From Anthoceros angustus (lineage: Eukaryota > Plantae > Anthocerotophyta), in contig MU008161.1 in the NCBI GenBank assembly GCA_010909165.1, positions 868,001 through 932,000 of the forward strand: 64,000 bases of DNA, read 5' to 3'. Below are positions 13,701 through 58,643 of the stretch, piece by piece. The position numbers and the translations under genes were made by a program. The notes under the pieces are model-generated. The model was not told the DNA's origin. It ran no database searches and saw only the letters and a program-made list of their open reading frames with translations. How positions within the stretch are numbered: position 1 is the first letter of the stretch; every line of letters begins with the position of its first letter.

Positions 13701-16374
13701 TCCGAGCCCTGTGGAGAAAGAGGGCACAAAGGAGTTAGAGGCCAAGAGGGCCAAGAGGGTGAGACTGACTCACCACTGTGACCGAGGGTCCCGATTAGGT
13801 CCGAGAACCCACCCCGACTTACTCGGATCAAGGTATGGAGGTCCTCGGATCGAGAAATGCCTCCCACTACGGACTTTGTGGGGCCTCATCACGTGGAAGA
13901 AACACGGCGAAGTCCTGCCACCGCCATGGACGGAATGCTTTGGGGTCTCTGGTACATGGAGAGAAGACCTGTGAAGTGGAGGCCACCCGAGGAGGATGGT
14001 GGAACCCAAGAGCAAGGCGCCGAGGGGCAAAGGAAAAGGCGGAGTCCCTCGCCGGATCGAGGAAGGGAAACGCCGGGTGGCGGAGCGAGGCCCGGTTCAG
14101 ACTGGGTTAAGGTTCTTCACCAGGCAGCAAGCTCTGGGAGGCCCAAGCGGAGGACCTTGCAGTAAGAGGGAAGCGCAGCAGAGGCGGAAGAGGCCCGGCA
14201 CAAGCAGAGAGCTCGACTGGAGGCGGCCCGGCCAGAGGCCAAGGGCGAGGCCTATAAAGGCGGCGAAGGAGTCAAGCCGGCAAAAGAGCGACCGGATCAC
14301 CATGACGTGATCGAACCGTGGAGAGAGTCGCAGCAATGAAAACCTGGGCGTGACAAAGGCTATGGAGGTGCAGGCCAAGACTCGGGAGATAGAGGATCTC
14401 CGAGTACAGCAGGAGGTAGAAGGAGGCGGCAGATGGAGGACAAGAAGGACACGCTGGAGCTACAACCCAAGATGCGCTTGAGCAGCAGTGATTCTCAACG
14501 AGAATCCACGACCGAGCACGAAGCAGTGCCTCGGCTCCGTCAAGACGGAGGAAAATCGGCGACTATCCAAGGAGTTGGACGCTGCTGTGCATGTATGAGC
14601 CGGAGGAAGTCCGAGCCTGACGGAGGTATCCGACCGCCGAGAGGGAGTCATGAGCTAAAGGCCGTAATGAACGGAGGAGCGCGAGCACGGAAGCGTAAAA
14701 GGCCGTCCACCGAGAAAGGCGGAAGGGAACGCCGCGCTATGGCGGTAAGTCGGCAAAGAGGAAACGACGGAGCCGGAGCAGTGAGCAAATGGCACTGCAG
14801 GAGGTGACCGAGGCCGCCTTGTAGCCTCACGTGATACAGCCCCCAACAGGTGAGGTGGCCCAACAAGGCAAAGACGCCTCCCAACACTTATGGCGGAGGG
14901 AGTCGGTGCTGCACACGTGGAAGAGGCAATTCAACAAGTCGATCTGACTTTGCCTATTACCACGAGCCCCGAAGCGAGAAGCCTCGACACCACAGACGGA
15001 CCCCTGGAAGGCTCAAGGAGATGAAGGCCACGGGAGACAGGGACCCTAGTGGCCCTGCTTGGAGATGACGGAGCGCGAGAGGAGCAACCGAGGAGCGAAC
15101 GAGGGAGCGCGGATGCGATCGAGGTAAGCACCCCGCACCTCACCATGGAAGGAGGGCCAACGAAGGAGTCACCGGGCGATCGGGAATGGGAGGACTTCGA
15201 GGAGAGCCACGGAGGAGTCCCGTGAGGGAGGAAACCCGGTGGCGTGAGTCCGACTTTGTCCGGACTCAGGGAGGCCGGACCAAGTCCGGACCAAGTCCGA
15301 CAAGTCCGGACCAGAATAAGTCCGACCGTCCGTAATAAGTCCGGACCAAGTCCGGACCAAGTCCGGACCCCGTAATAAGTCCGGACCAAGTCCGGACCAA
15401 GTCCGGACCAGAATAAGCCGACTCGTTCGTGAGTCGAGACAGACCTCGAGGACCGGCCAAGGCAAGAAGGAGGAGCCCCTTCGACTTACGCTTAGGGGAG
15501 CCGATAATGGCCCCACCGGCGGGACCTGTGGAGGGGCCAGGGAGGATGACGCCGGTAACGCGCCGATCCGCCAGAGCCCAACCCGATGTGATTCCGGAGA
15601 GGAGGGGCCCGCCTCACGGATCATCCGATTGGGTGCACCACAACCGCTGACGGGATTGGACCACCCATTCCGAGGCGGCCTGTGACCTTCCCACCCCTAC
15701 AATGGCGAAGGAGATAGGGGGGGATAGGCCGGTAGGCGATTAGGGTATACCGAATATCACGCCGTAATAGGGGTGTAATAAAGACGCCACCTTGGGCGCA
15801 GATAAGAGGGGCCGAGCCTAGTAAAGCATCTTTCTCTTGGTGTTGATGCCGCTCTGCACCTTTGTGAGTCTTCTTGCTAACGTGAGTCCCGAGTCACCGA
15901 AAGGTGCACGGCCCGGGAGATTGATCAAGGTCCCGTGACGGACTTAACGCGCTGTGTGCGTGAAGGGTGACCGTGATCCGTGTCCGAGCCGCGTCCGACA
16001 CCGAACTGACCGAACGCGTGAGCCGGAGGAACTCCGGAGGGTGTAGAGCCCGGACGAGAGGCCCATGAACGAGAGGAGGTCCGATCAGAACCCGCGTTTT
16101 TCTAAGATCAAGAGTGTAGCGTGAGAGAGAGGAAAGGATCGATGCGTGAGGATGTATGTGAACGATACGGACGCGAACGGGTCCTTAAACGCTTGGCCAT
16201 ACCGGGCTCAGACGGTGAACGCCAGAGTAGAAGTTAGGAGTATGTGTGTGAGACGAACGAGCGCTAAGGACTAAGAATCACCAAACGCGTAAACCTATCA
16301 TTCCCTTTGGGAACGGACTTCTTCCTACAACGACACGGATTGTGCGCTACCGGCCATCAAAAAGTCCCGCCACA
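7704..16374 (+). repeat. 5' LTR, expanded to 8.7 kb by three internal duplications (jumps near 9111, 10468, 12970)
   Basis: Colinear in segments with the middle LTR. Ends AAAAGTCCCGCCACA directly before the PBS. Confidence 0.8.
15247..15425. repeat. ~11-bp tandem array (CAAGTCCGGAC), palindromic core GTCCGGAC, in LTR1
   Basis: caagtccggaccaagtccgacaagtccggacc...aagtccggaccaagtccggaccaagtccggacc; roughly ten units. Confidence 0.9.
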
Positions 16375-16377
16375 TTT

Positions 16378-16395
16378 TGGCGCCGCTGCCGGGAA
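16378..16395 (+). other. Primer-binding site, tRNA-Asp type
   Basis: TGGCGCCGCTGCCGGGAA 3 nt after the LTR-terminal CA, close to the Athila-type tRNA-Asp PBS TGGCGCCGTTGCCGGGGA. Degenerate copy at ~26255. Confidence 0.8.
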
Positions 16396-16493
16396 TGAAA
16401 TCGTCTGGTGCCGCAGTGCGCCCCAGGGAAGAGAAGGTAAGTGAATGCGTGGCGTCGAGCGACGGCCAAGAGTGAACCGTCAGAGGATCGGAC

Positions 16494-19400
16494 GTGGTCA
16501 CCTCGCGTCTCCGAGCCGTGGAGAGGGAGAGACGCCAAACCCAACGAGAGCACCGCCGATCGAGGAGGGAGAACGTGGTCGAATTGTCGGACCAAGACGA
16601 GTACGGGGTACGAGGGACGCCAACGGAAGAAGGTAGGACACCCACGCCTAACCCATCGATGCAGCCATGGCCCCTACCGACCAAACAAGCGACTCCATAT
16701 TCGGAGGGAAGAAGGAGCGGATGCGAGACCTTTGTGGAGGACTTCGTGTCCAAAGCCAACTTCAACGGAGAGGGAGCCGACCATCCAGCTTTTCCAAGGG
16801 GTTCTCCGAGGAACCGCTCAATGGTATCGGAGAAAGTACCGACCACGGAGAATGCCCCACCCGCCTCGCTTGAAGCTTTGAAAATGCCTTCTTAGAACGG
16901 TTTCGAGGATCGACCAGTGAGGGGTATGTATTATCAAAGTTGGAAAACTGCGAGGGAAGAAGGAGAAGCCGGGCTCAGACATCGCGGTTCTATGCCCGAG
17001 GATCGGCATCCAACCCATACCACGATGCAAGCAGACGCGGTTCGCGCTAGCCAAACCCATGGCTGTGCACGCCCCGCCGCCGAGAAGGACGTGGGCAAGG
17101 CGGTCAGGCGGCGAAAACTACGAGGAATCGCTACATCGAGGATAAAGAACCGCCAAGGAGGCAAGAAGAAGAAGAAGAAACGGGGTTCAGACTCCGAGGA
17201 GGAAGAGTCTTCAGAGGAGGAGGAAGACCAATCGGAGGTGTCTTCGGAGGAGGAGCAGTCGTCCGAAGAAGAGACGGAGGTCTCTAGCGAGGAAGAGTAT
17301 CCCCGCAAGAAGAAGAGCAAGAAGGCCCCGGCTAAAAAGAAGCAGGGTAAGAAGGAGGTGGTGACACCAGCACCGGTCCGAGAAGCTCCACGGACCCGAC
17401 TCCCTCAAAGGAGGTAGCTGTCCGGAGGACCCGGTGATAAAGAGAGTAGAGGACCGCGAAACCAGTTAAGGACCGAGAGCGCGGAAAACACCGACTACGG
17501 CGAACGCATCTCGTGTGCCGGTGCCAAGAACACGGCCATTCGAATCAACCGCCCCTCAAGGCCGCATCAAGTGGACTACGAATACGAGGAGGAGGCCGAG
17601 GAGCAATGGGAAGAGGCCTATCAGTGTGAAGCCCTCCGGGCCGCGATATCCCAAAACCATGTATCCGCCAACCGGAGGTCCACAATACAACGAGCCCCAC
17701 CGATGCAAAGACCGCATGGGAGCCCCTTCGTATCCTCCGCAGACGTGGTCCGCTGGAACCGCGGAATCGCCATTACTCCAACGCGTGTCCGCACTCAACG
17801 AGGCAGGTGGTAATGGGGACTTCGAGCGGTGCCGCAAGCGGGGCATATGACAGACGCTATGTCCCAACCCCGACAAGGACGGTACGATATGCCACACCAA
17901 GCGGAGAACCCCGACCACCAACGCCACCTCCTAAGACTACTGTGACGGCAAGTCAAGATGCTCCATGGAGGAAGAGATTCCAGGTACGCGAGATGGAAAA
18001 GAACAAGAAGGTACGGTGAAGTCGAAGGAAATCTTGAGGTGTCATCAGAGGAAGAAGGAGCGACGAGAAAGGCGCTTGAAGAAGAACAAGATCGAGGAAG
18101 GCCATGACGCCGAGGAAGGCAATCAAACCAAATACCAGCAGAGGATCCGACCGATGAAGGAGGGCTGGACAGCCCGCCGAGGGATTACCCAAGGAAGTTC
18201 TCCCAGACAGATGTGGAGAAGGGAACGGTGCCTCCGCGACCGACGTTAGCTTCCACGGACGTAGTCCGGAGGTGACCGAGATGTTGCAGGAGGAAATGCG
18301 CAAGCATCCGGAGAATACCGTAACACGGTGACCCGGGAGAGGATGAGGACGCAGCAGGATCCTCGATTGGGGTAGAAGCCTCCCCTTTAATGTGGCGACC
18401 GATGATGAATCGAAGACGTCCTTTCTACCGCCGAGGATAACCCCAATACAAGAGGTCCGTCGGGCCGTTAGGGGAAACCCATGGAGCACCAAAGCCGTGA
18501 AGGGTAGTGGAAGTGAGGGTGGTGTCCCATACGGACCTGTGGGCGCCAGTGGTACAAGTGGAGATTGGATGTATCATCAAGGATGTACCGCTGGACACGG
18601 GTCCGAGTCAACCTCATCATCAAGCCACGGCACGAAAATTGGGCTTCACATCCTTCGAACCTCAACGAAGACTCGAGAATGGCGTATATGTCAAGAAGAG
18701 ATCCGGGGAGTTAACCGAGTCTTGGCCACCATAGCCGGCACCCTACAACCGGATTTTGTTGTGATCAAACCGGCCGGACCATTAGGGTATGAGGTGTTGC
18801 GGGCCATGGGTTGGCCTGCAAAGCTACACTTTGGAAGGAAGGAGATTCACTTCAAGCCGGTGGACCGGGACCCTAAGGTGCGAGAAGGGAGGGTTGCTAT
18901 CACCGGAGCAAGGACACCTATTGTGGGAAACTGTGAGCACTAAGGGTATACCTCGGAGGACTCCACCGACGAAACAAGATAGTTCCGAGGAGGCGACTTT
19001 CGCCAAGATCCGCCGGTCCGAGGAGGAGATGGACTACTCATGGATGCCTTGGAAGTGATTGATTGTTTTCGAGTAAACGCCACAACGGGCCGGAGGAAGG
19101 AAGTGAAGAGGAGGTCGGACCAAAGACAAGGGGAGACAACAAGAGTCGGACCAAGGAAAAGCGGACATCAAGGAGTAACACGATTCACCTCCGACGAGCT
19201 CTTCAGAATGGGGATGCGAGAGGACGATCCCCGAGAGGAGGACGAGGGTTTGGACGCACGAGAGACGGAACGGGAGAGTGAACCCGGACGACGGAAGAAG
19301 TGGAGGTCCGCCAAAATTCAAGTTTAAGAAAGGCATGCCTCCGGACCAAGGAAGGACTAAAGCAACCTGGGGAGTTTTATGAGGTGTTCGCCTTCAAGGT

Positions 19401-21892
19401 CACGGACATGAAGGGCATTCAAGAAGTGGGAGAGCATAAGATCGATTTGAAGCCGAGCGGTGCCCCGAATCCGACAATACAAGCTCAACCCCAAGTATTC
19501 GATCAAGGTGAAGGAGGTCCTTGATAAGTACCGGAGGCAGACATCATTTTCCCCATCCAAATGAGTGGGTCGCTACCGATTGTGGTGGTCCCAAACAACA
19601 GACAAATTGTGATGCAAGATTGGAGGAAGCTCAACGCCGCGGAGAAGGACCACTTCCGATGCCATTCAGAGACGACATTTTGGACAAGGTGGTCGGACGG
19701 ACTACTTACTCCTTCCGGATGGCTACTCCGGATATAACCAATTGCACCTAAGGGAGTTTGACCGACAAGACGACCTTCACTACGGAGTGGGGTACGCTTG
19801 CCTACAAGAGAAGTGCCTTTGGGATGACCGAGCGCTGTGGTCGCATGCGTATGGTGACCAACGCCTTCCGTGACTTCCGAGGGACTTCATGGAGATATTC
19901 TGGATGATTTTGTGTGCATGGGGAGGGACAAACACCTTGGGCATCTAAGAAGGTGCTTGAGCGCCGGAGACTCAATTGAGCCTACACCCGAGAAATGCTA
20001 CTTTGGAATGACGGAGGGAATCTTGTCGACATCGTGTCGCTGGAATCGAGGTGGACCAGACAAGGTCCGGTCATCCCCTCTCCACCACCGACGAACCTAA
20101 AGGAGCCGAGAGGTTTCGGAATGGTGGGATACTACGGTTTATTAAGGACTTTGCAAGAGGGCTAAGTTGATGTAACATCAAGGAGGAGGTTTGGACCCGT
20201 CAGAGCGAGAGGAGGCCTTCGGATTTAGTAACACCTTGGTAAGCGCACTTCTAAGAGGACCGGATCGAGCAGAAATTTCATGTGTATGTAGATGTGTCCT
20301 TTTGCTATCGGAGTAGTGCCGAGCCGTAAGGACGACAAGCGGGATTATCCCGTATACTACCGGACGACCACCCACGCTGAACGAAAATACACAACTACAG
20401 AGCGCCAAGCACCGGGTATGGTATATGTCCAAGAAATTCGACACTACCTACTACCTGTGAGTTTGTGTTCTATGTAGACCACTTTGCTCAAGCATCCGGT
20501 GAATAAGACGGACCGTCCGGACGGATAGCAAGGTGGATATTGTTGCGCAGGAGTTCACGTCAAGTGGAAACAAGACAAGGGAGGCAAGACCAAAATGCGA
20601 TTTCCACGATTGAAAACAGAGTGTGTTGAGAGATCGTGAAGATGCCCGGATGAGACATTGGTTGCCGCAGAAAGTACAACCGAGGAGCCCACCGACAACC
20701 CCAAGCTACGAGAATCGCAGCAGCGGAAGGAGGCCCGCCCGTCCGACCCACGAAGAAATAGAGTACTGGGAATGGAGCTTCCAAAATGACTCGTGATGAG
20801 GGAGGCATTCGTGCACTATGCTCGACCCTTCGTAATGTACAACGGTGTGTGTCAAATTAGGGCCTGACGGAGTAGAACGAAGGTACTTGCAACCGCAGAG
20901 ACAGGAGTGGCCAAGGGAATGCACGAAGGATTGGGGGTGGACACTACGCAAAGACAGTCACCACCAAAAGATTTTAGGCGGGATCTTGGTGGCCAACAAT
21001 GTATGGGGACACCCACCGCTTAGAAGAAGTGTGATGCTTGTCACGGATCGGAAGCCAACCCCGACGACACAGGCCGCTAGTACCGATATTGGCACCGCAC
21101 CTTCAAAAGTGGGGTATTGACTTTGTTGGACCTATACCACGACAAGACACACACAAAGGAGATACATCCCGGTGGCAACGGACCATCGCACTGTGGGTAG
21201 AGGCGGCGACAAGAACGGACTCGCAAATACCGTGGCCAAATTCGCACGAGAACATCATAACCCGCACGGATGTCCGTAGCTTGGTAAGTGATAGGGGAAC
21301 CCATTTCCTTAATGATGTGGTGGCCGCCATGACGGAGTATTTCGCATCAATCATCGCAAGACGGCACCCTACAATCCTAAGGCCAATGGGTCGACAGAGA
21401 AGACAAATGGGCTCATCCGCAGGATCTCGAATAAACTCACGATGAACTACGCCCATGATGATACTGCCATCCGTGACTGTATGCCCGACAGCAGAGAAGG
21501 TGACCACACAACGGACCCTTACTTGACCACGACACTCTCCGTAATGCCGAGAGTTTGAAGTGCCCACTTTTCGAGTAATGATGGAAGGAGACCGATGAGA
21601 GGAAAGCCACCGAGCGACTCTTGGGGTTTGACACGAGGATGGAAGAAGCTCACCGAAGATGCAATGGTGCAAAACCAAAAGATTTGGCACGATCACGATC
21701 GAATCGGAGTATGTAAAGGAAGGGACCCGCCCTCCTTTATGATAGTCGCCACATGCATTTTCCGTGCAAACTTCACCGAGATGGATGGGTCCGCATCAAG
21801 TGGTGCAAGTATATGACAACGGGTCCGGCCCACGGCGCTAGATGGAGAGCCGTTGCCCAGAACGGTGGCGGGTGAAGAAGTATCATGCTTAG
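16494..21892 (+). pseudogene. gag-pol of Gypsy copy 1 (frameshifted in this assembly)
   Basis: Gag with acidic/basic tract and CCHC-like knuckle (~17510). Protease LDTG...YEV(L)LGRPW (~18590-18810). RT EHKIDLKP...EWV.PIVVVPK...DHFPMPFRDDILDKV...DGYSGYNQ...MEIF(L)DDF. RNase H FHVYVD...KYTTTE...FRHYLL. Integrase KWGIDFVGP...LVSDRGTHFLN...NG..EKTNG...WMGP...RVKKYHA* (TAG 21890-21892). The start is approximate. Confidence 0.9.
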
Positions 21893-21910
21893 TGTTGGCG
21901 AGACGCCAAC

Positions 21911-21927
21911 AGATGAGAAGGGGAGTA
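21911..21927 (+). other. Polypurine tract
   Basis: AGATGAGAAGGGGAGTA immediately before the LTR start; also GATGAGAAGGGAGTA before 31771 and the equivalent before 33009. Confidence 0.8.
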
Positions 21928-22079
21928 TGGGCTATGCACTGGGAGTTAAGAAATAAGTAGGGTTTCGCTTTTTAGGATTGAAGGATAAATAAGGCGAAAA
22001 GGAGGAATAAATTGGGGTAGCGCCGGACGAGGCTCCGGAGTATACTCCGACTGGAGTGAACAACGGACCCCGCATTACC

Positions 22080-25025
22080 ATGGCAAGCTCCGACTACGCC
22101 GAGTAACGGATAAGTCCAACCCACCCAGTGTCAAAATAGGATAAGTACGCCAGGAAAGTAACCTAGGAGCGAGGCGTGAGGATGACGAGGCGCGCGGACG
22201 GCCCCGAGTGGAGGTCGGGCATGTGAGGCTGTGATCAGAACCTGCGAGGCGCAGGCAGTATTCACGCCCGCGGCGTGGCGTAAGGCCGTAAGCGGGGCGA
22301 GTCGAGTAAGCCATGCACTCGCGCACGGACAACGAAGAGGCGCCCGCCCAGCTTACTTCCACAAGCCAAGGAGGGAGGTGGCTCGCCGCAGCCTCCCTCA
22401 CATCCCCTTGCGCCCGCAATCCCCGCTCGCTTTTTGGGCGCCTGGCCACAGAGCGTGGCGCACCGTCAAGGTTGGAGCAGAACGCGGGGAGGAACATCGT
22501 ACGGACTCGCCAGCCTACAAAGAACAAGAGGAGGAGAAAGCAATGGCACCCAAAAGCCGAGTCTGGGAGCCATGGACCTCGTGAGCGCGCAACATTGTGA
22601 CCCGCGCTATCCGGACTTGGGCCCCGCCGGAGGAAGTGGGAATTGGTGCAGGGAGTGGCATCCGGACGTGTTCCAAATGGTCTGACCTTTGACAACGCTA
22701 CCTAGTCCGGAGTTTAAGGCGGCGATCAACAAGGAGGTCCGATCCAAGAACCTCCGGAGGACTCGAGGCGATGGACCTTGAGGTCCCGAGGATGGCCTAC
22801 AACCGCCCAAGGAGGAAGAAGGGGCGCAGAGCCCCTTAAGGCGGGGAAGATAGGCCACCGCGTGGCGAGGCTCGAACGCAGCGACAACCAACGGATGGTT
22901 GATATCCGATCCGCCGGATACGAGTAAGGGCGGTAGCGGATCATTGTCCATTGAACTCGCCACCAAGGTGGATCACCTTGGTGATAACCCGCTGGTATTC
23001 TCGCATGCGCCCTGGGAAGAGAGCGACTGGGAAGGATTATCTTCGCCCGGTGCCTGTGAGGCACGCAAGCTAAGGAGCGAGAAGCCTCGCCATCGGCCGA
23101 CCCCATACCCGATTCATGTATGGGGACATTTCGAGCTCAAGGAGGGAGAGCTTGAGCGGCGCCGGAGGCCGGAGGCCCGCTGTAGAGCGTGGCGCCGAGG
23201 TGGGGGCCCTCAAGACCAAGCGACTGGAGGAGGACGATCGAGGATTCCGACTCACGCCCTGAGCGAACCCCTCACCACCTGTGGAAGTTTGGGAGGCGAT
23301 TCTTCCTCCTTTTGGTGCCCTCCGAGCAAGACAGAGGGAGCGATGCCGGAGGGCGCTGGCTCCCAGACCGGCTGACAGCCAACAACCACGACGCCGAGCC
23401 CCCGAAACGGGAGCCAAGAGGCGAAGACGGTTACCAACGCAAAGACCTCGAAGGTGCCGGACTTACCCCCGCCTACCTGAGTGGCAAGAGGTCAAGAGGC
23501 TAAGGAGGCAGGGGACGTGGCCCAAGGAGCAGGAGGTCACCGCGCAGCCACCTCGAGCCTGCCCCCGGCTGTGAAGGGGCAAAGCTTGCTCCCGACCCCT
23601 CACCTCCTCAGCCCAGGAGAAAGAGGGCACAAAGGAGTTAGAGGCCAAGAGGGCCAAGAGGGTGAGACTCGACTCACCACCGACCCGAGGGTCCCGATTA
23701 GGTCCGAGAACCCCCCGACTTACCCGGAGCGGGTATGGAGGTCCTGGCGGATCGAGAAATGCCGGCCCCACTACGGACTTTGTGGGGCCTCACTCATGGC
23801 CGTGGAAGAAACACGGCAGTCCTGCTACATGGACGGAATGCTTTGGGGTCTCGTGGTACAATGAGAAGACCTGTGAAGTGGAGGCCACCCGAGGAGGATG
23901 GTGGAACCCAAGAGCAAGTGAAGGCCGAGGGGCAAAGGAAAGGCGGAGTCCCTCGCCGGATCGAGGAAGGGAAACGCCGGGTGGCGGAGCGCGAGGCCCG
24001 GTTCAGCAGACTGGTTAAGGTTCTTCACCGGCGAATACCAAGCAAGCTCAGAGGCCCAAGCGGCGGAGGACCTGCAGGCGGAGGACGCGGGAGGCGGAAG
24101 AGGCCCGGCACAAGCAGAGAGCTCGACTCGGAGGCGGCCCGGCCAGCAAGGGCGAGGCCTGTAAAGGCGGCGAAGGAGCCAAGCCGGGCAAGAGCGACCG
24201 GATCACTATGCACGTGATCGAACCGTGGAGAGAGTCAGTGACCGAGGCTAACTCAAGGCCGTGACAAAGTGCTATGGAGCAGTAAGGCCAAGAGGGAGAT
24301 AGAGGATCTCCGAGTACCGCAGGAAGTAGAGGAGAAGCAGATGGAGGATGAAGGACACTGAGCTACAACCCAAGATGCGCGGAGCGCAGTGATTCTCAAC
24401 GAGAGAATCCACGACTGAGCACGAAAAGAGTGCCCGGCTCCGTCTCAAGACGGAGGAAAATCGCGACTATCCAAGGAGTTGGACGCTGCTGCCATGTATG
24501 AGCCGGAGGAAGTCCGAGCCTGGACGGAGGTATCCGACTGGAGAGGGAGTCATGAGCTAAAGGCCGTAATGAACGGAGCGCGAGCACGGAAGTAAAAGAA
24601 GCCTGGTCCACCGAGAAAGGCGGAAGGGCCCATGGCGGGTAAGTCAATGGAAAGGAAACGACGGAGCCGAGCAGGGAGCAACTGGCAATGCAGGAGGTGA
24701 CCGAGGCCCTTGTAGCCTCGCGATATGCCCACACAACCGCGTGAGAGGTGGCCCAACAAGCCGGCAAAGACCCCTCCCGAACACTTATGGCGGAGGGAGT
24801 ATCGCTCCGCACACGTGGAAGAGGCAATTCAACAAGTCGATCTGACTTTGCCTATTACCACGCCGAGCTCCGGCGAAGCCTCGACGGCCGAAACGGACGG
24901 ACCGGAAGGCTCAAGGAGATGAAGGCCACGGGACAAAGACAGGACCCTAGTGGCCCCTGCTTGAGATGAGGAGCGGAGAGGAGCAACCGGAGGAGGAACG
25001 AGGGAGCGCGATGCGATCGAGGGCA
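22080..25025 (+). CDS. Putative LTR-encoded protein (~1000 codons if the frameshifts are errors), unknown function; also in LTR1 (ATG 7853) and LTR3 (ATG 33157)
   Basis: Coding-like, GC3-rich segments recur across the LTR copies: GIGAEWHPDVFQMV, INKEVRSKNLRRTEAMDLEVPRMAYN, SIELATKVDHLGDN, IHVWGHFELKEGELE, GAKRRK, EGTKELEAKRAKRVRL, IEKCRPHYGLCG, AHVEEAIQQVDSDFAYYHAEL. No copy shows a continuous frame. Confidence 0.55.
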
Positions 25026-25130
25026 CCCCGCACCTCACCATGGAAGGAGGGCCAACGGGCGAGTCACTCGAACAGCTGAGGACTTCGAGGAGAGCCACGA
25101 GGAGTCCGTGAGGGAGGAAACCCGGTGGCG

Positions 25131-25280
25131 TGAGTCCGACTTTGTCCGACCCTGAGGAGGCCGGACCTCAAGTCCGACTCAGAAGTCCGACCAAGTCCGG
25201 ACTCAAATAAGTCCGACTGTCAAGACAAGTCCGGAAGTCCTCCGACCGACCGAGGTCCGGACCCCGAGACAAGGTCGACC
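25131..25280. repeat. AAGTCCG(G)AC tandem array in middle LTR
   Basis: Same position relative to the LTR as 15247-15425; more degenerate. Confidence 0.8.
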
Positions 25281-26359
25281 CAGCCGGACCGAAGGACTCA
25301 AGTTCGTGAGTCGAGACAGACCTCGAGGACCGGCCGCAAGAAGAAGGAGGAGCCCCTTCGACTTACGCTTAGGGGAGCCGAGTGGTGGCCCCACCGCCAA
25401 GGACCTGTGGAGGCTGGAGGATGACGCCGTGGTAACGGTTGTCGATCCGCCAGAGCCCAACCCGGCTGTGATTCCGGGAGAGGAGGGCCCGCCTCACGGA
25501 TCATCCGATTGGGTGCACCACAACCGCTGACGGGGATTGACCACCCATTCCGAGGGCTCAGACCTTCCCACACAATGGGCGAAGGAGATAGGGGGATAGG
25601 GGTAGGCGGCCGATTAGGTATACCGAAATATCACGCAATAGGGGTGTAATAAAGACGCCACCTTGGGCGCAGATAAGAGGGCCGAGGCCGCCTAGTAAAG
25701 CATCTTTCTCTTGGTGTTGATGCTGCCTGCGCACCTTTGTGAGTCTTCTTGCTAACGTGAGTCTGAGTCAGCGAGCACGACTCGGGAGATTGATCAAGGT
25801 CCCGTGACGACTTAACGCTGTGGTGTGTGCGTGGAAGGGTGATCGGTGATCCGTGTTTCGTCGAGCCGCGTCCGACACCGAACTGATCGAACGTGAGCCG
25901 AGGAACTGAGGGTGGGTGTAGAGCCCGGACGGAGAGGCCCGCGAACGACGAGGAGGTCCGGATCACAGAACCGCGCCTTTTCTAAGACCAAGAGTGTAGC
26001 GTGAGGAGAGAGGAAAGGACCGATGCGTGAGGATGTATGAACGATACGGACGCGAACGGGTCCTTAAACGCTTGGCCATACCGGCCTCAGACGAACGCTG
26101 TGAGTAGTTAGGAGTATGTGTTGAGACGAACGAGCGCTAAGGACGGTAAGAATCACCAACGCGTAAACGGGCCTATCATTCCCTTGGGAACGGACTTCTT
26201 CCTACAACGACACGGATTGTGCGCCCGGCCATCAAGAAAGTCCCGCCACATTTTTGGCGCTACGGGAATGAAATCGGTCCTGGTGCCGCAGTGCGCCCTT
26301 AGGAAGAGAAGGTAATGCGGTCGAGCGACGGGCCTCAAGAGTGAACCCGAGGATCGGAC

Positions 26360-29300
26360 GTGGTCACTCGCGTGCCCGAGCCGTGTGAGAGGGAGAGACG
26401 CCAAACCCAACGAGAGAGCACCGCCGATCGAGGAGGGAGAACGTGGTCGAATTGTCGACCAAGACGAGTACGGGTACGAGGGACGCCAACGGAAGAAGGT
26501 AGGATGCCCCACGCCTAACCCATCGATGGCGCAGCCATGGCCCCTACCGACCAAACAAGCGTACTCCATATTCGAGGGAAGAAGGAGCGGATGCGAGACC
26601 TTTGTGGAGGACTTCGTGTCCAAAGCCAACTTCAACGGAGAGGAGTCGACGCTCATCCAGTTTTCCAAGGGGTTCTCCGAGGAACCGCTCAATGGTATCG
26701 GAGAAAGTACCGACCACGAGAATGCCCCACCCGCCTCGCTTGAAGCTTTGAAAATGCCTTCTTAGAACGGTTTCGAGGATCGACCAGTGAGGGGTATGTA
26801 TTATCAAAGTTGGAAAATCAAGCGAGGGAAGAAGGAGAAGCCGGGCTCAGACATCGAGCGGTTCTATGCCCGAGGATCGGCATCCAACCCATACCACGAT
26901 GCAAGCGGTACGGTTCGCGGCCTAGCCAAACCCATGGCTGTGCACGCCCCGCCGCCGAGAAGGACGTGGGCAAGGCGGCCGAGAGCGGCCGAAAACTACG
27001 AGGAATCGCTACATCGAGGATAAAGAAATCCTCAAGGAGGCAAGAAGAAGAAGAAGAAACGGGGGACTCGAGGAGGAAGAGTCTCGAGGAGGAGGAAGAC
27101 CAATCGGAGGTGTCTTCTGAGGAGGAGCGTCCAAGAAGAGAGAGGTCTCTAGCGAGGAAGAGTATCCCGCAAGAAGAAGAGCAAGAAAGCCCGCTAAAAG
27201 AAGGTGGTAAGAAGGAGGTGGTGACACCAAAGATCGGTCCGAGAAGCTCCACGACCCGACTCAAGGAGGTAGCAGTGTCGCGGAGGACCGGAAAAGTGAT
27301 AAAGAGAGTAGAGGACCCGCGATAAACTGTGTTAAGGACCGAGAGCGCGGAAAACACCGACCACGGCGAACGCATCTCGTGTGCCGTGTGCCAAGAACAC
27401 CATTCGAAGTCCAACCGCCTCAAGGCCGGCATCAAGTGGACTACGACGAGGAGGAGGCCGAGGAGCAATGGGAAGAGGCCTATCGCATGTGAAGCCCTCC
27501 GGGCCGCGATATCCCAAAACCATGTATCCGCCAACCGGAGGTCCAATACAACGGGCCCCACCGATGCAAAGACCGCATGGGAGCCCTTCGTATCCTCCGA
27601 CGGCCGTGGTCCGTTGGAACCGCGGAATCTCGCCATTACTCCAACGCGTGTCCGCACTCCAACGAGGGGGTAATGGGGACTTCGAGCAGTGGCGATCGCA
27701 AGGTGCCGCATATGACAGCAAGACGCTATGTCCCAACCTCAAGCGACGATATGCCACACCAAGCGGAGAACCCGACCACCAACGCCACCTCCTAAGACCG
27801 TGACGCAAGTCAAGATGCTCTGGCGGAGGAAGAGATTCCTGAGGTACGCGAGATGGAAAAGAACAAGAAGGTTGGGGTGAAGAAGGCGAGAAATCTTGAG
27901 GTGTCTACTGTAGTCAAGGAAGGAGCGACGAGAAAGGCGCCATTGAAGAAGAACAAGATCGGAGGAAGGCCACGACGCCGAGGAAGGCAATCAAACCAAA
28001 TACCAGCAGAGGATCCGACCGATGAAGGAGGGCTGACGGCAGCTCACGGAGGGATTACCCAAGGAAGTTCTCCAAGACAGGAGAAGGGAACGGCCTCCCG
28101 CGACGGCGACGTTAGCTTCACCGGAAGTCCGGAGGTGACCGAGATGTTGCAGGAGGAAATGCGCAAGCATCCGGAGAATACCGTAACAAAGTGACCGGGA
28201 GAGGATGAGGACGCAGCAGCAGGATCCTCGATTGGGGTAGAAGCCTCCCCTTTAATGTGGCGACCGATGATGAATCGCAGCACTTGTGTCCTTTCGACAT
28301 ACCGAGGATAACCACCGCAAGAGGTCCGTCGGGCCGTTAGGAAACCCAGCCTCGGAGCACCAAAGCCGTGAAGGGTAGCATGGAAGTGAGGGTGGTGTCC
28401 CATACGGACCTGGGGCCAGGGTACAAGTGGAGATTGGATGTATCATCAAGGATGTACTGCTGGACACGGGTCCGAGTCAACCTCATCACCAAGCCACACG
28501 AAAATTGGGCTTCACATCCTTCAACCTCAACGAAGACTCGAGAATGGCGTATATGTCAAGAAGAGATCCGCGGGAGTTAACCGAGTCTTGGCCACCATAG
28601 CGTGCACCCTACAAACCGGATTTTGTTGTGATCAAACCGGACCATTAGGGTATGAGGTGTTCTTTGGGCGGCCATGGTTGGCCTGCAAAGCTACACTTTG
28701 GAAGGAAGGAGATTCACTTCAAGCCGGACTGGGACCCTAAGGTGCGAGAAGGAGGTTGCTATCACCGGAGCAAGGACACCTATTGTGGGGAAACCGTGAG
28801 CACTACCGGGTATACCTCGGAGGACCACCGGCGATTTAACAAGATAGTTCCGAGGAGGCGACTTTCGCCAAGATCCGCCGGGTCCGAGGAGGAGATGGAC
28901 TATCATGGATGCCTTTGGCGGAAGTGATTGATTGTTTTCGAGTAAACGCCACAACGGGCCGGAGGAAGGAAGTGAAGAGGAGGTCGGACCACAAGGGGAG
29001 ACAACAAGAGTCGGACCAAGGAAAAGCGGACATCGAGTAACACGATTCACCTCCGACGAGCTCTTCGAGAATGGGGATGCGAGAGGACGATCCCGAGAGG
29101 AGGACGAGGGGTTTGGACGGAGGCAAGACGGAACGGAGACGGTGAACCCGGACGACGTGGAAGAAGTGGAGGTCCGCCAAAATTCTCAAGTTTAAGAAAG
29201 GCATGCCTCCGGACCAAGGAAGGACTAAAGCACCGGGGGGAGTTTTAGGTGTTCGCCAAGGTCACGGACATGAAGGGCATTCAAGAAGTGGGAGAGCATA

Positions 29301-31737
29301 AGATCGATTTGAAGCCGAGCGTGCCAACCAATCCGACAATACAAGCTCAACCCCAAGTATTCGATCAAGGTGAAGGAGGTCCTTGATAAGTACCGGAGGC
29401 AGACATCATTTTCCCCATCAACAGCGAGTGGGTCGCGCCGATTGTGGTGGTTCCCAAGAAACAACAGACAAATTGCATGCCAAGATTGAGGAAGCTCAAT
29501 CAAGAAGGAGAAGGACCACTTCCGATGCCATTCGTGACGACATTTTGGACAAGGTGGACGGACTACTTACTCCTTCCTCGGATGGCTACTCCGGATATAA
29601 CCAATTGCACCTAAGGGAGTTTGACCGACAAGACGACCTTCACTACGGAGTGGGGTACGCTTGCCTACAAGAGAAGTGCCTTTGGGATGACCGAGCGCCA
29701 GGTCGTTCATGCGTATGGTGACCAACGCCTTCCGTGACTTCGAGGGACTTCATGGAGATATTCCCGGATGATTTTGTGTGCATGGGGAGCAGGACAAACA
29801 CCTTGGGCATCTAAGAAGGTGCTTGAGCGCGGAGACTCAATTGAGCCTACACCCGAGAAATGCTACTTTGGAATGACGGAGGGAATCTTGTCGACATCGG
29901 TGTGCTGGAATCGAGGTGGACCAGACAAGGTCCGGTCATCCGCCTCCAGACGAACCTAAAGGAGCCGAGAGGTTTCACAGGAATGGTGGGATACTACCGG
30001 TTTATTAAGGACTTTGCGAAGAGGGCTAAGTTGATGTAATCCCGGAAGGAGGAGGTTTGGACCGTCAGGAGCGAGAGGAGGCCTTTTACAGTAACACCTT
30101 GGTAAGCGCACGGCCTAAGAGGACCGGATCGAGGAAATTTCATGTGTATGTAGATGTGTCCGCTACATGGAGCGAGCCGTAAGGACGACAAGCGGATTAT
30201 CCCGTATACTACGCCGGACGATACCACCACGAACGAAAATACACAACTACAGAGCGAAGCAGGTATGGTATATGCCGCCAAGAAATTCGACACTACTACC
30301 CAAAGGAGTTTGTGTTCTATGTAGACCACTTTGCCATCCGGTGAATAAGACGGACTGTCCGGACGGATAGCAAGGTGGATATTGTTGCCGCAGGAGTTCA
30401 CGTTCAAGTGGAAACAAGACAAGGGAGGGCACCAAAATGCGATTTCGTCACGATTGAAAACAGGCGGTGTTGAGAGATCGTGAAGAAGATGCGCTCCTGA
30501 TGAGACATTGGTTGCCGCAGAAAGTACAACCGAGGAGCAACCCCAAGCTACGAGAACCGGCAGCTTAGTGGAGAAGGGAGGGTCTCCGTCCGACCCACGA
30601 AGAAATAGAGCGGTCCTGGGAATGGAGCTTCCAAAATCACTGGATGAGGGAGGCATTCGTGCACTATGCTCGACCCTTCGTAATGTACAACGGTGTGTGT
30701 TCAAATTAGGGCGGACGGAGTAGAACGAAGGTACTTACAACCCAGAGATGAGCCGCCAAGGGAATGCACGAAGGATTGGGGTGACACTACGCAAAGACAG
30801 TCACCAAAAGATTTTGAAGCGGATACCGGTGGCCAACAATGTATGGGGACACCCACCGCTTAGAAGAAGTGTGATGCTTGTCGGATCGGAAAGCCAACCC
30901 CGACACAAAGGCCGCTAGTACCGATATTGGCACCGCACCTTTCAAAAGTGGGGTATTGACTTTGTTGGACCTATACCACGACAAGACACACACAAAGGAG
31001 ATACATCCCGTGGCAACGGATCATCGCACTGTGGGTAGAGGCGGTGGCGACAAGAACGGACTCGCAAATACCGTGGCCAAATTCTGTCTGAGAACATCAT
31101 AACCCGACGGATGTCCGCCGCTTGGTAAGTGATAGGGGAACCCATTTCCTTAATGATGTGGTGGCCGCCATGACGGAGTATTTCGCATCAATCATCGCAA
31201 GACGGCACCCTACAATCCTAAGGCCAATGGGTCGACAGAAGACAAATGGGCTCATCCGCAGGATCAATAAACTCACGGAACTACGCCCATGATCGATACT
31301 AAGCCGCCATCCGCACTGTATGCCCGACAGCAGAGAAGGTGACCACACAACGGACCCTTACTTGACCTACGGACACTCTCCCGTAATGCCAGAGTTTGAA
31401 GTGCCCACTTTTCGAGTAATGATGGAAGGGAGATGAAGAGGAAAGCCACCGAGCGACTCTTGGGGTTTGAAAGACAGAGGACAGGAAGAAGCTCACAAGA
31501 TGCAACAGCAAAACCAAATAAAGATTTGGCACGATCGCCGATCGGAATCGTGAGTATGTAAAGGAAGGGACCGCCCTCCTTTATGATAGTCACACATGCA
31601 TTTTCCGTGCAAACTTCACCGAGATGGATGGGTCCGTACTCAAGTGGTGCAAGTATATGACAACGGGTCCGTCCACGGCGACTAGATGGAGAGCTGCCCA
31701 CTGAAACGGGTGGCGGGTGAAGAAGTATCATGCTTAG
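26360..31737 (+). pseudogene. gag-pol of Gypsy copy 2 (frameshifted in this assembly)
   Basis: Colinear with 16494-21892: CAVCQEH knuckle (~27380), LDTG, RT, RNase H and integrase ending RVKKYHA* (TAG 31735-31737). Confidence 0.9.
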
Positions 31738-31914
31738 TGTTGGCGAGACGCCAATGATGAGAAGGGAGTATGTGGGCTATGCACTCGGGAGTTAGAAATA
31801 AGTAGGGTTTCGCTTTTTAGGATTGAAGGATAAATAAGGCGGAAAAGGAGGAATAAATTGGGGTAGCGCCGGACGAGGCTCGAGTATACTCCGACTGGAG
31901 TGAACAACGGACCC

Positions 31915-33155
31915 TGCACTATGCTCGACCCTTCGTAATGTACAACGGTGTGTTCAAATTAGGGCCTGACGAGTAGAACGAAGGTACTTGCAACCGGCAG
32001 AGATGGAGCTAGCTGGAATGCACGAAGGATTGGGGTGGACACTACGCAAAGACAGTCACCACCAAAAGATTTTGAAGCGGATACGTGGCCAACAATGTAT
32101 GGGGACACCCACCGCTTAGAAGAAGTGTGATGCTTGTCACGGATCGGAAGCCAACCCGACGACACGGTGGCCGCTAGTACCGATATTGGCACCGCACCTT
32201 CGAAAAGTGGGGTATTGACTTTGTTGGACCTATACACCCTACGACAAGACACACAAAGGAGATACATCCCGTGGCAACGACCATCGCACTGTGGGTAGAT
32301 GACAAGAACGGACTCGCAAATACCGTGGCCAAATTCTGACGAGAACATCATAACCCGACGGATGTCCGCATTGGTAAGTGATAGGGGAACCCATTTCCTT
32401 AATGATGTGGTGGCCGCCATGACGGAGTATTTCGCATCAATCATCGCAAGACGGCACCCTACAATCCTAAGGCCAATGGGCCGACAGAGAAGACAAATGG
32501 GCTCATCCGCAGGATCTCAATAAACTCACATGAACTACGCCCATGATCGATACTAAGCCGCCATCCGACTGCGCCGGACAGAAGGTGACCACACAACGGA
32601 CCCTTACTTGACCTACGGACACTCTCCCGTAATGCCAGAGTTTGAAGTGCCCACTTTTCGAGTAATGATGGAAGGGAGACGACAAGAGGAAAGCCACCGA
32701 GCGACTCTTGGGGTTTCAGACATGAGGAGGGAAGAAGCTCACAAGATGCAATGCAAAACCAATAAAGATTTGGCACGATCGCCGATGAATCGGAGTATGT
32801 AAAGGAAGGGACCGCCCCTTTATGATAGTCGTCATGCATTTTCCGTGCAAACTTCACCGAGATGGATGGGTCCGTACTCAAGTGGTGCAAGTATATGACA
32901 ACGGGTCCGGCCTACGACTAGATGGAGAGCTGTTGCCCACTGAAACGGGTGGCGGGTGAAGAAGTATGCTTAGTGTTGGCGAGACGCCAATGATGAGAGA
33001 AGGGAGTATGTGGGCTATGCACTTCCACGGGAGTTAAGAAATAAGTAGGGTTTCGCTTTTTAGGATTGAAGGATAAATAAGGCGAAAAGGAGGAATAAAT
33101 TGGGGTAGCGGACGAGGCTCGGAGTATACTCCGACTGGAGTGAACAACGGACCAC
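31915..33155 (+). repeat. ~1.25-kb tandem duplication of integrase 3' region + PPT + first ~150 bp of LTR
   Basis: The LTR start at 31771 runs to ...CCCTGCACT and resumes at ATGCTCGACCC (equivalent to ~30665) through GCACTA microhomology. Confidence 0.8.
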
Positions 33156-39100: not shown

Positions 39101-41303
39101 CGAAAGCTATCACCGTAATAGGGTAATAAAGACGCCACCTTGGGCGCAGATAAGAGGGCCGAGTCGCCTAGTAAAGCATCTTTCTCTTGGTGTTGATGCG
39201 CGTTCTTGCACCTTTGTGAGTCTTCTTGCTAACGTGAGTCCCGAGTCACCGAAAGGTGCACGACGGGAGATTGATCAAGGTCCCGTGACGACTTAACGCT
39301 GTGGTGTGTGCGGGGAAGGGTGACCGTGATCCGTGCTCGAGCCGCGTCCGACACCGGATCGAACGTGAGCCGAGGAACCCGGAGGGTGTGTAGAGCCCGG
39401 ACGAGAGGCCCGCGAACGACGAGGAGGTCCGGATCACAGAATCAAGGCCTTTTCTAAGATCAAGAGTGTAGCGGAGAGGAGAGAGGAAAGGATCGATGCG
39501 TGAAGGATGGCGTGAACGATACGGACGAACGGGTCCCTAAACGCTTGGCCATACCGGCCTACGGTGAACGCTAGAGTAGTTAGGAGTATGTGTGTGTAGA
39601 CCGAACGAGCGCTAAGGACGGTAAGAATCACCGAACGCGTAAACGCCTATCATTCCCTTGGGAACTGACTTCTTCCTACACACGGATTGTGCTACCGCTG
39701 GTCATCAAGAAAAGTCTCGCCACAAAGCTCCGTAGGATCCTTAGCCTCCGAGCCGCCTCACGGATCATCCGATTGGGTGCACCACAAGCTGTCGGGGGAT
39801 TGGACCACCCATTCCGGCGGGGCCAGGACCTTCCCACGGCGAAGGAGATAGGGGGATATGGTAGGCGGCCGATTAGGGTATCTGGCTATTTCGAATAGGG
39901 GTGTAATAAAGACGCCACCTTGGGCGCGATATAAGAGGGGATGCTCTAGTAAAGCATCTTTCTCTTGGTGTTGATGCGCGTTCTTGCGGACCTTTGTGAG
40001 TCTTCTTGCTAACGTGAGTCTGAGTCCGGCGGGCACGGCGGCTCGGGAGATTGATCAAGGTCCCGGTGGCGGACTTAGCGTTGTGGTGTGTGCGGGGAAG
40101 GGTGGCGGTGATCCGTGCTCGAGCCGCGTCCGACACCGGATCGAACGTGAGCCGGAGGAACCCGGAGGGTGTGTAGAGCCCGGACGAGAGGCCCGCGAAC
40201 GACGAGGAGGTCCGGATCACAGAATCAAGGCCTTTTCTAAGATCAAGAGTGTAGCGGAGAGGAGAGAGGAAAGGATCGATGCGTGAAGGATGGCGTGAAC
40301 GATACGGACGAACGGGTCCCTAAACGCTTGGCCATACCGGCCTACGGTGAACGCTAGAGTAGTTAGGAGTATGTGTGTGTAGACCGAACGAGCGCTAAGG
40401 ACGGTAAGAATCACCGAACGCGTAAACGCCTATCATTCCCTTGGGAACGGACTTCTTCCTACACACGGATTGTGCTACCGCTGGTCATCAAGAAAAGTCT
40501 CGCCACAAAGCTCCGTAGGATCCTTAGCCTCCGAGCCGCCTCACGGATCATCCGATTGGGTGCACCACAAGCTGTCGGGGGATTGGACCACCCATTCCGG
40601 CGGGGCCAGGACCTTCCCACGGCGAAGGAGATAGGGGGATAGTGGTAGGCGGCCGATTAGGGTATCTGGCTATTTCGAATAGGGGGTGTAATAAAGACGC
40701 CACCTTGGGCGCGATATAAGAGGGGATGCTCTAGTAAAGCATCTTTCTCTTGGTGTTGATGCGCGTTCTTGCGGACCTTTGTGAGTCTTCTTGCTAACGT
40801 GAGTCTGAGTCCGGCGGGCACGGCGGCTCGGGAGATTGATCAAGGTCCCGGTGGCGGACTTAGCGTTGTGGTGTGTGCGGGGAAGGGTGGCGGTGATCCG
40901 TGTCGGAGCCGCGGTCCAGGCACCAGGAGCGTGAGCCGGAGGAACTCGGGAGGGTGTGTAGAGCCGGACGGAGGCGTGAGCAGCGGAGGAGGTCGGGGAT
41001 GCGTAACCAGCGTCTTTTCTAAGGCGAAGAGTGTAGCGTGAGAGGAGAGAGGAAAGGGCGGATCGTGAAGGATGTATGTGAGCAATCACGACTGAGCAGG
41101 TCCCTAAACGTTTATCAAGACTGTCACGGTGCGTTGTGAGTAGTTAGGAGTATGTGTGTGTCTTTGAGGCGAGCAGGCGCTAAGGGCCAGTAAGAATTAC
41201 AGAACATGATGGCAGGCCTATCATTCCCTTGGGAACGGACTTCTTCCTACAACGACACGGGATTGTGCGCGCCCGGCTGGTCATCAGCAAAAGTCTCGCC
41301 ACA
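33009..41303 (+). repeat. 3' LTR, expanded to 8.3 kb by internal duplications
   Basis: Starts TGTGGGCTATGC after the PPT. LTR end TCTCGCCACA occurs at 39724, 40507 and 41303. Palindrome arrays at ~37365-37545, ~38205-38400 and ~38595-38780. Confidence 0.8.
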
Positions 41304-44630: not shown

Positions 44631-44675
44631 TGCGATATTGCCTGATAGTGTCAACTCCCATCTATCTAGAGCTGC

Positions 44676-58632: not shown

Positions 58633-58643
58633 GAATCGGAGCA

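What the first reader, a model, noticed from the sequence alone, without database searches (positions are those of the whole stretch)
21928..26250. A ~3-kb protein-coding region lies inside the LTR of a Gypsy retrotransposon
Seen: integrase ends (RVKKYHA*) about 20 nt before the PPT. The LTR then starts TGTGGG and ends CCACA + PBS 4.3 kb later. About 150 bp into every full LTR is ATGGCAAGCTCC, followed by ~3 kb of GC3-rich, protein-like sequence. It has an apparently globular N-terminal part (WHPDVFQMV, IHVWGHFEL), a Pro/basic linker with an NLS-like AKRRK, a Cys/His/Trp patch (KCRPHYGLCG...WTECFG) and a charged coiled-coil-like C-terminus. A candidate stop is at GAGG-TAA (15125, 37255), which also looks like a splice donor. 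Known: plant Gypsy extra ORFs normally lie outside the LTRs (Athila env-like after pol, Ogre ORF before gag, Tat/Retand antisense ORFs). LTR-embedded genes are known from retroviruses, e.g. MMTV sag. Inference: this family carries an accessory gene in U3, so it is duplicated at each transposition and would survive in solo LTRs. I do not recognise the protein.
Basis: partly seen in the sequence, partly recalled or inferred. Interest (0 to 1): 0.85.

Follow-up and report, generated by a model that had tools for sequence, protein, structure and literature searches.

The report
VANC-fold gene inside a retrotransposon LTR
A jumping gene, likely from a seed-free plant, carries a likely protein-coding stretch of about 2.6 kb inside its 4.3-kb end repeat, followed by a tandem array of a short palindrome; intact relatives of the protein are predicted to fold like a known transposon anti-silencing factor, so the gene likely helps the family escape host silencing and would stay behind in lone repeats.

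Summary
The 4,323-bp LTR (21928-26250) is real: polypurine tract before it, primer site after it, and host flank at its start in another copy. The window is an indel-rich long-read assembly, so no copy shows an open frame. Still, about 22540-25133 is depleted in plus-strand stop triplets like pol (0.58-0.72 of expectation), while the LTR ends are not.

Integrase relatives from metagenomes have the same layout with intact 550-850-codon ORFs after the PPT; one circular contig holds a whole 3.8-kb LTR. A profile of their core matches the window's LTR copies (best 44.7 bits, shuffles at most 27.3). That core resembles Athila/Transposase_32 accessory domains and is predicted to fold like VANC21 (Z 7.5, only hit above 5). 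An 11-bp palindromic array follows the ORF, relatives carry family-specific words, and their clade lacks CHG depletion.

Best reading: an Athila-type accessory gene moved into U3, likely a sequence-specific anti-silencing factor (0.55; function untested). This scan reported the same layout earlier in a likely liverwort genome; ten paper searches did not find it in print.

The parts
20936..21892 (+). Integrase, C-terminal part of pol, ending RVKKYHA-stop with no chromodomain tail
   Evidence: tblastn of intact relatives; translation
21894..21925 (+). Short inverted repeat (21894-21910) and polypurine tract (21911-21925); a similar pre-PPT block precedes TGTGGG in L001, L005, L006
21928..26250 (+). 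Full LTR, 4,323 bp, TG...CCACA
   Evidence: run X1 contigs cover 30 of 30 bins
22080..22106 (+).
22543..25133 (+). Accessory ORF, about 860-900 codons, broken by indels in every window copy. Start inferred: ATG 22543 has good plant context and matches relatives' N-terminal length; 22182, 22221 and 22313 are alternatives. End: stop shared by 5 of 5 copies at 25131
22650..23190 (+). Conserved core domain, homologous to the U3 ORFs of relatives (Athila/Transposase_32-like; VANC21-like fold predicted for relative L005)
23190..23700 (+). Pro/basic low-complexity linker with a basic NLS-like stretch (KELEAKRAKRVRL; NLS role inferred)
   Evidence: frame from contig anchors
23700..25133 (+). Segment conserved with a diverged relative in run X2, then a charged, likely coiled-coil C-terminal part
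   Evidence: period-3 signal z 2.3 for 24000-25130
25135..25260 (+). Tandem array of an 11-13-bp unit with palindromic core GTCCGGAC right after the ORF; cleaner in other copies (15275-15410, 12.7 units; 37396-37487; 38229-38381; 38625-38715)
25640..25730 (+). Candidate U3/R region (AATAAA, then a pyrimidine-rich patch); role inferred, not tested
26255..26270 (+). Primer binding site; the cleaner copy at 16378-16396 matches that of L001 and L007; tRNA-Asp type (recalled)
26300..31730 (+). gag-pol internal region of the same element (RT-RNaseH-IN by tblastn; protease hit in the 16375-21927 copy), frameshift-ridden
7704..41303 (+). Whole cluster: two internal regions, a duplicated integrase piece (31915-33153) and twelve partial LTR pieces; likely in part an assembly artefact

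Best explanation
This Athila-like Ty3/gypsy element has a 4.3-kb LTR whose U3 part holds a likely protein-coding gene, and the protein likely acts as a sequence-specific DNA-binding anti-silencing factor for its own family, as VANC does for VANDAL transposons. Shown: LTR limits, a coding signal inside the LTR, intact U3 ORFs in relatives, and a palindromic tandem array just after the ORF. Supported by computation: homology of the window's N-terminal core to those ORFs, and a VANC21-like fold for a relative's core. Inferred: the protein is nuclear, oligomerises through its coiled coil, binds the GTCCGGAC-type word in the array and elsewhere in the element, and lowers or prevents DNA methylation there. 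Because U3 is copied to both ends in reverse transcription, each insertion would have two gene copies, and solo LTRs would keep gene and target array together. It would need its own promoter in the first 600 bp of U3 or a spliced subgenomic RNA; which one is unknown.
For: Stop depletion like pol in 4 of 4 copies. Of 66 integrase relatives, the 13 closest to the window belong to the two clades with a long sense ORF after the PPT; 11 of these 13 show the ORF or part of it. L007 holds PPT, a 742-codon ORF and the PBS on a circular contig. Frameshift-aware profile: 44.6, 33.6 and 27.5 bits for three copies, with 0 of 200 shuffles reaching each. At the mildest frameshift penalty the top 7 of 128 window bins are all this domain; the reversed profile reaches 25.6. 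An unbroken 99-aa window stretch aligns to the profile over 73 columns, P 2e-4. Relatives' core is under purifying selection (L001 vs L004 pN 0.25, pS 0.77). Model pLDDT 80.9; VANC21 9lnk Z 7.5, rmsd 4.3, 204 aligned, the only one of 48,161 chains at Z 5 or more, next 3.9. Atlas: 23 of 30 hits Transposase_32, 4 ATHILA, scores 0.92-0.93. Strongly over-represented 7-mers in 6 of 8 ORF-bearing loci against 2 of 31 others. CHG at synonymous integrase sites: median 0.96 in the core clade, 0.44-0.69 in five other clades. CpG o/e 0.95 in the element, 0.51 in the neighbouring LINE.
Against: The fold was predicted for relative L005, not for the window's protein. Z 7.5 with 14% identity is below the tool's caution line for helical folds, and a shared fold shows no function. 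Single relatives aligned to window copies mostly did not clear shuffles convincingly. One of seven segments (copy C, which lacks the domain's first half) scored at background. At the harshest frameshift penalty the margin over the reversed profile shrinks to 28.2 vs 22.7. The relative's contig in X2 changes frame between its third and fourth anchor. In relatives the enriched words run through coding DNA too, unlike VANC21's non-coding targets (PMC5735166). The CHG result is one clade against five with unknown hosts; the ORF-bearing L014 clade is only 0.69; in the window CHG o/e is lower in the element (0.82) than in host DNA (0.97-1.03).
Confidence: 0.55

Rival explanations
1. Same gene and same ancestry (Athila-type accessory ORF moved into U3), but another job: a transcriptional activator of its own LTR like foamy-virus Tas (recalled), an integration-targeting factor, or an oligomeric scaffold. 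The array would be an enhancer-like repeat or a by-product of template slippage.
For: Athila-domain proteins have no tested function and are predicted to form coiled-coil pentamers (PMC13547354, passages). The array lies about 400 bp upstream of the candidate U3/R border. Tandem arrays are common in non-chromovirus elements (PMC6317226, passages).
Against: The nearest solved fold is VANC21. Family-specific words and the lack of CHG depletion in the clade fit methylation escape better.
Confidence: 0.28
2. The gene was functional in the lineage but is decayed in this family or locus; the breaks are partly real mutations.
For: No window copy has an open frame. The relative's contig in X2 has a frame change. 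L004's ORF is in three pieces.
Against: pol is broken just as densely. Differences between copies are dominated by short gaps. Run X1 contigs show many letters left out or put in relative to the window. Stop depletion equals that of pol.
Confidence: 0.1
3. The LTR middle is coding but unrelated to the relatives' core (a captured host or other transposon gene), and the profile match is chance in noisy sequence.
For: Direct searches with window fragments found no relative. Single-sequence scores are weak.
Against: Several early fragments were partly off-frame. The profile match falls at the same place in U3 and in the same register across copies, passes three kinds of control, and agrees with shared integrase kinship, LTR start and PBS.
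Confidence: 0.07

Closest known systems
Athila clade (non-chromovirus, OTA Ty3/gypsy) and its 3' sense extra ORF (ATHILA PF03078; Transposase_32 PF20167)
   Same: RT-RH-IN order without archaeal RNase H or chromodomain; Athila-type PBS (recalled); a sense extra ORF after pol whose core resembles PF20167/PF03078 (L014 hits PF20167 at E 2.5e-4, below the curated cut-off); coiled-coil tail.
   Different: The ORF lies after the PPT, inside U3, not in the internal region where reviews place extra ORFs (PMC7264820; PMC6317226). It is therefore doubled in each element and kept in solo LTRs.
VANC anti-silencing proteins of VANDAL (Mutator-like) DNA transposons; VANC21, PDB 9LNK
   Same: Predicted fold of a relative's core; coiled coil; a short family-specific word in a tandem array in non-coding DNA of the element (PMC5735166).
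   Different: Carried by a retrotransposon, 14% identity, no DUF1985/DUF287 hit, palindromic GC-rich word, host probably not a eudicot; binding and demethylation untested.
Retroviral LTR-overlapping genes (MMTV sag, HIV nef, foamy-virus bel; all recalled)
   Same: Coding sequence in U3, copied to both ends.
   Different: No sequence or fold relation found (viral fold search gave none at E 0.001 or better); far longer; plant retrotransposon.
Retrosat2/RIRE3/RIRE8 of grasses (PMC3485330)
   Same: LTRs over 3 kb and an extra ORF.
   Different: Their ORF0 is described as upstream of gag-pol; the passages read do not place it inside the LTR.

Membership tests
Athila (REXdb non-chromovirus|OTA|Athila) | Falls in the Athila clade on RT/RH/INT trees with labelled references | not tested
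   No labelled reference set was on hand; the tree has unlabelled metagenome relatives only and no window row
Athila (REXdb non-chromovirus|OTA|Athila) | No archaeal RNase H, no chromodomain | tested here: met
   RT-RH-IN collinear with P0014/P0016, which list no extra domain; integrase stops at 21892
Athila (REXdb non-chromovirus|OTA|Athila) | PBS for tRNA-Asp | tested here: inconclusive
   PBS seen and shared with L001 and L007; the tRNA assignment is recalled, not run
Athila (REXdb non-chromovirus|OTA|Athila) | Sense extra ORF with PF03078/PF20167-type domain | tested here: inconclusive
   Atlas 0.92-0.93 for L005; Pfam hit below cut-off for 1 of 9 relatives; none for window fragments
Athila (REXdb non-chromovirus|OTA|Athila) | Extra ORF in the internal region, between pol and the PPT | tested here: not met
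   PPT lies about 20 nt after the integrase stop; the ORF starts about 600 nt into the LTR
Athila (REXdb non-chromovirus|OTA|Athila) | 5-bp target-site duplication | tested here: inconclusive
   Flanks at 7704 and 41303 agree at 3 of 5 bases; noisy assembly
Phygy / Selgy | Short elements without extra ORFs or large non-coding regions (PMC6317226) | tested here: not met
   4.3-kb LTR with a long coding region
VANC | VANC/MAIN-like fold | tested here: inconclusive
   Relative L005: VANC21 Z 7.5, rmsd 4.3, 204 aligned, sole hit at Z 5 or more; the window's own protein was not folded
VANC | Encoded by a Mutator-like VANDAL DNA transposon | tested here: not met
   Encoded in a Ty3/gypsy LTR
VANC | DUF1985/DUF287 domains | tested here: inconclusive
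   No such Pfam hit in 9 relatives at E 0.1; remote homology would be missed
VANC | [quoted passage not shown] | tested here: met
   11-bp unit, up to 12.7 copies, after the ORF in each copy covering it; that it is the protein's target is untested
VANC | Binds the motif and demethylates the family in trans | not testable with these tools
   Needs EMSA/ChIP and methylomes; only indirect CG/CHG footprints

The most novel reading that the evidence does not exclude
A widespread clade of plant Ty3/gypsy elements encodes a VANC-like, sequence-specific anti-silencing protein inside U3 together with its own target array. The LTR is then a self-contained counter-defence cassette: every solo LTR can keep making the factor and shield the family in trans, each family has evolved its own recognition word, and the clade has escaped CHG methylation long enough to show it in its codons.
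Probability: 0.4. Interest if true: 0.9.

Novelty: new variant of a known kind. Interest (0 to 1): 0.72.

Why it matters
A 2026 paper cites VANC as the example of TE-encoded anti-silencing and leaves open whether Athila-type ORFs modulate their elements' methylation (PMC12844716, passages). A VANC-fold gene with a candidate target array inside an LTR makes that question directly testable. It would also change how solo LTRs are read: not inert leftovers but possible sources of a trans-acting factor. ORFs in LTRs may be missed by annotation that looks only between the LTRs (inference). Family-specific protein/word pairs could give new tools for targeted demethylation.

Tried and rejected
No whole genome is held for the window. 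Searches with window fragments found nothing usable: word-index searches, Pfam, Atlas (nothing at 0.9 or more), PDB sequences, and the representative library, which gave one hit, a tandem-repeat protein, rejected. Several of those fragments later proved partly off-frame. A Myb/SANT-like reading of the N-terminus (recalled pattern) was dropped: no Pfam support, and the profile alignment explains the same residues. Alignment A2 mis-stacked and was not used. The codon-position test between window copies was uninformative: the excess of mismatch spacings divisible by three is as large in non-coding LTR parts. Period-3 signal is weak: z 2.1-3.1 in ORF copies and pol, 0.5 and -0.1 in two ORF sub-regions of the 21928 copy, and 2.6 in one non-coding control. 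Plain tblastn of window LTR translations against the 80 loci gave no hit, and plain tblastn ranking of integrases was noisy, so a frameshift-aware score replaced it. Foldseek found no match at E 0.001 or better in PDB or viral libraries; the profile A6 found none in PDB sequences. The single-sequence model of L014 was too poor to use (pLDDT 36). The three LTR-ORF rows with L005 as query used a wrong frame and were dropped. No RNA holder was listed for the LTR; X2 is only guessed to be RNA, so expression is not shown. The tree is the quick tree. Look-ups of earlier findings by place and by sequence were blank. PMC9016345 is not held.
Full report
THE WINDOW. The sequence is an indel-rich long-read assembly. 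Copies of the repeat are 77-95% alike, with differences dominated by short gaps, and the known pol region is as broken as the LTR. No whole genome is held. A DZIP1-like gene and a hexapeptide gene with a transit-peptide-like start suggest a plant or alga with flagellated cells, likely a seed-free land plant; this is inference. The cluster 7704-41303 has two internal regions and one complete LTR (21928-26250); the other twelve LTR segments aligned are partial and probably partly assembly duplicates, so they are not independent copies.

THE LTR IS REAL. The integrase stops at 21892, a PPT follows at 21911-21925, and the LTR begins at 21928. The same start is seen after the PPT at 31771 and 33009 and after unrelated flank at 7704. 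The end CCACA is followed by a PBS at 16374 and 26250 and by unrelated flank at 41303. Contigs of DNA run X1 cover 30 of 30 bins of the LTR. A target-site duplication was not confirmed (3 of 5 bases).

THE MIDDLE IS CODING. Plus-strand stop triplets stand at 0.70, 0.58, 0.72 and 0.71 of the base-composition expectation in four copies of the LTR middle. The two pol copies give 0.66 and 0.64, three intact relatives 0.59-0.82, and six LTR-end segments 1.14-1.37; the minus strand shows no such contrast. Stops shared across copies number 57 against 92.8 expected in 22222-25140 (my sum of ten bins). Period-3 signal is weak and the mismatch-spacing test was uninformative. A 1,635-nt contig of a diverged relative in run X2 anchors at four places. 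Three share one frame, which puts KELEAKRAKRVRL and MDGMLWGL in frame and WTECFG out; in nine codons after the third anchor, three of four differences are synonymous third-position changes. The fourth anchor is in another frame, so that relative has a frame break or an intron (read by hand). X2 is only guessed to be RNA.

The ATG at 22080 closes within 8-21 codons in the four copies that have it. Four later ATGs (22182, 22221, 22313, 22543) recur across copies; 22543 has good context and leaves about the N-terminal length seen in relatives, so I take it as the likely start. The GAGGTAA 'stop' is absent from the 21928 copy; a stop shared by 5 of 5 copies at 25131 ends the depleted zone. The gene is thus about 2.6 kb. 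Whether this family still has intact copies is open.

RELATIVES. Window fragments found no homolog, so I went through the integrase: 41 proteins, an alignment of 11 of them, then 80 metagenome loci, the best of 273 confirmed. I examined 39 of the 80 for downstream ORFs and 14 in detail. L002, L005, L006, L007, L014 and L016 carry sense ORFs of about 550-850 codons after a PPT that lies within about 90 nt of the integrase stop; L001, L008 and L017 carry shorter or contig-cut ones. L001 and L003-L006 start the LTR with TGTGGG as the window does, and L001 and L007 share its PBS. L007 is a circular contig with PPT near 3765, a 742-codon ORF and the PBS at 7577, so the ORF lies within one 3.8-kb LTR. 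Ten of 80 loci hit the core profile. They fall in one supported integrase clade in a quick tree of 66 rows. By frameshift-aware score, the 13 integrases closest to the window are from this clade and the L014 clade; the locus search was itself seeded from this group. The core is under purifying selection (L001 vs L004, 184 codons, pN 0.25, pS 0.77; three L005-query rows dropped as off-frame). The relatives' hosts are unknown.

HOMOLOGY TO THE WINDOW. A profile of six relatives gave one hit among 2,560 stop-free pieces of the window, in LTR copy B (E 0.0047; 0.029 with a 12-sequence profile). With frameshifts allowed, six of seven LTR segments scored 27.5-44.7 bits in a consistent register; the seventh lacks half the domain and scored 13.8. 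None of 200 shuffles reached the real score in any of three copies; the best bin outside the domain scored 25.1. The reversed profile reached 22.7-25.6 over three penalty settings against 28.2-51.0. An unbroken 99-aa stretch aligned at P 2e-4, probability 47%. Single relatives mostly did not clear shuffles convincingly. I put the homology at about 0.9, helped by the shared position, LTR start, PBS and integrase kinship.

WHAT THE CORE IS. Pfam names 1 of 9 relatives, weakly (L014, Transposase_32, E 2.5e-4). The Atlas places the L005 core with Transposase_32 (23 of 30 hits) and ATHILA clusters at 0.92-0.93. Its model is confident (pLDDT 80.9). Foldseek found nothing; the wide structural search gave VANC21 (9lnk) at Z 7.5, rmsd 4.3, 204 residues, the only chain of 48,161 at Z 5 or more. 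The VANC lead came from earlier unreviewed findings of this scan in a likely liverwort genome; I tested it on my own relatives, not on their sequences.

SIGNS OF A TARGET WORD AND OF METHYLATION ESCAPE. Right after the ORF lies a tandem array of an 11-bp unit with palindromic core GTCCGGAC, up to 12.7 units. Its 7-mer density is 25-99 per kb in the arrays, about 1 in the rest of the element and 0-0.2 in host DNA. Among 39 loci of 4.5 kb or more, a 7-mer with -log10 p of 6.9 or more occurs in 6 of 8 ORF-bearing loci and in 2 of 31 others, both clustered; the words differ between families. In relatives they are spread through coding DNA as well. With amino acids held fixed, CHG in the integrase is at median 0.96 of expectation in the core clade and 0.44-0.69 in five other clades. 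This is one clade, with unknown hosts, so it is a lead. In the window CpG o/e is 0.95 in the element and 0.51 in the LINE, but CHG is not higher than in host DNA; youth or GC content could explain the CpG figure.

MECHANISM. [quoted passage not shown] By analogy I infer a nuclear, coiled-coil-oligomerising protein that binds the array and shields the family (0.55). A different accessory role for the same domain is the main rival (0.28).

COMPARISON AND NOVELTY. Extra ORFs of plant elements are described in the internal region (PMC7264820, main text read, parts 1-2 of 3; PMC6317226, passages; its supplements, including the eORF domain table, were not read and may bear on this). VANC is reported as structurally related to MAIN and dicot-specific, and VANC and the Athila domain are both predicted to form coiled-coil pentamers (PMC13547354, passages). 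Whether Athila ORFs affect methylation is left open in PMC12844716 (passages). Retrosat2 has long LTRs and an ORF upstream of gag-pol (PMC3485330, passages). PMC13468544 (passages) notes aRH-less 'zero' Tat lineages in liverworts, so Athila membership is not settled without a labelled tree. The VANC21 structure paper was seen only as a reference and a PDB title. Ten searches (listings only unless named above) showed no plant retrotransposon with a gene inside its LTR; the library lacks most subscription journals. Retroviral U3 genes are recalled.

VERDICT. Observation partly confirmed, interpretation supported with corrections. New variant of a known kind; interest 0.72.

Noticed in passing
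window 7704-41303: Staggered head-to-tail partial copies; 33747-34326 and 34773-35350 are 98.8% identical while other pairs are 77-95%; the LTR 3' end recurs three times with about 30 nt of the same flank. Likely assembly duplication from noisy reads.
   Followed up: partly
window 41799-46917 (-): LINE with endonuclease and RT ORFs (Pfam RVT_1, Exo_endo_phos), much less broken than the gypsy cluster; CpG o/e 0.51.
   Followed up: partly
window 60813-62099 (+): DZIP1/Iguana-like gene (PF13815, E 6.6e-11), a cilium gene (recalled), pointing to a plant or alga with flagellated cells.
   Followed up: no
window 58581-59261 (+): Hexapeptide-repeat gene (PF00132, below cut-off) with a transit-peptide-like start; LpxA-like by eye.
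   Followed up: no
window 55297-57237 (-): Two adjacent ORFs (452 and 193 codons) without Pfam hit.
   Followed up: no
window 5322-5914: 300-bp tandem duplication, 95% identical.
   Followed up: no
window 7904-8004 and 23635-23957: Run X2 (RNA is a guess) holds contigs of a diverged relative: 275 nt matching the LTR 5' part and 1,635 nt matching the ORF at four anchors.
   Followed up: partly
L014 3631-5292; L016 2696-5098; L017 2265-2780: A second integrase clade with a long sense ORF after the PPT; L014 hits Transposase_32 weakly and aligns weakly to the core profile (P 6e-4); own enriched words.
   Followed up: partly
L029 1106-8824; L030 2-7375; L031 1483-9234: Single polyproteins of about 2,450-2,580 codons that run about 1.3 kb past the integrase match; an extra C-terminal domain is possible.
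   Followed up: no
L001-L006, just before the PPT: A 40-nt block before the LTR is 85-100% conserved between families whose pol is about 70% alike; a similar short inverted repeat is at window 21894-21910.
   Followed up: no
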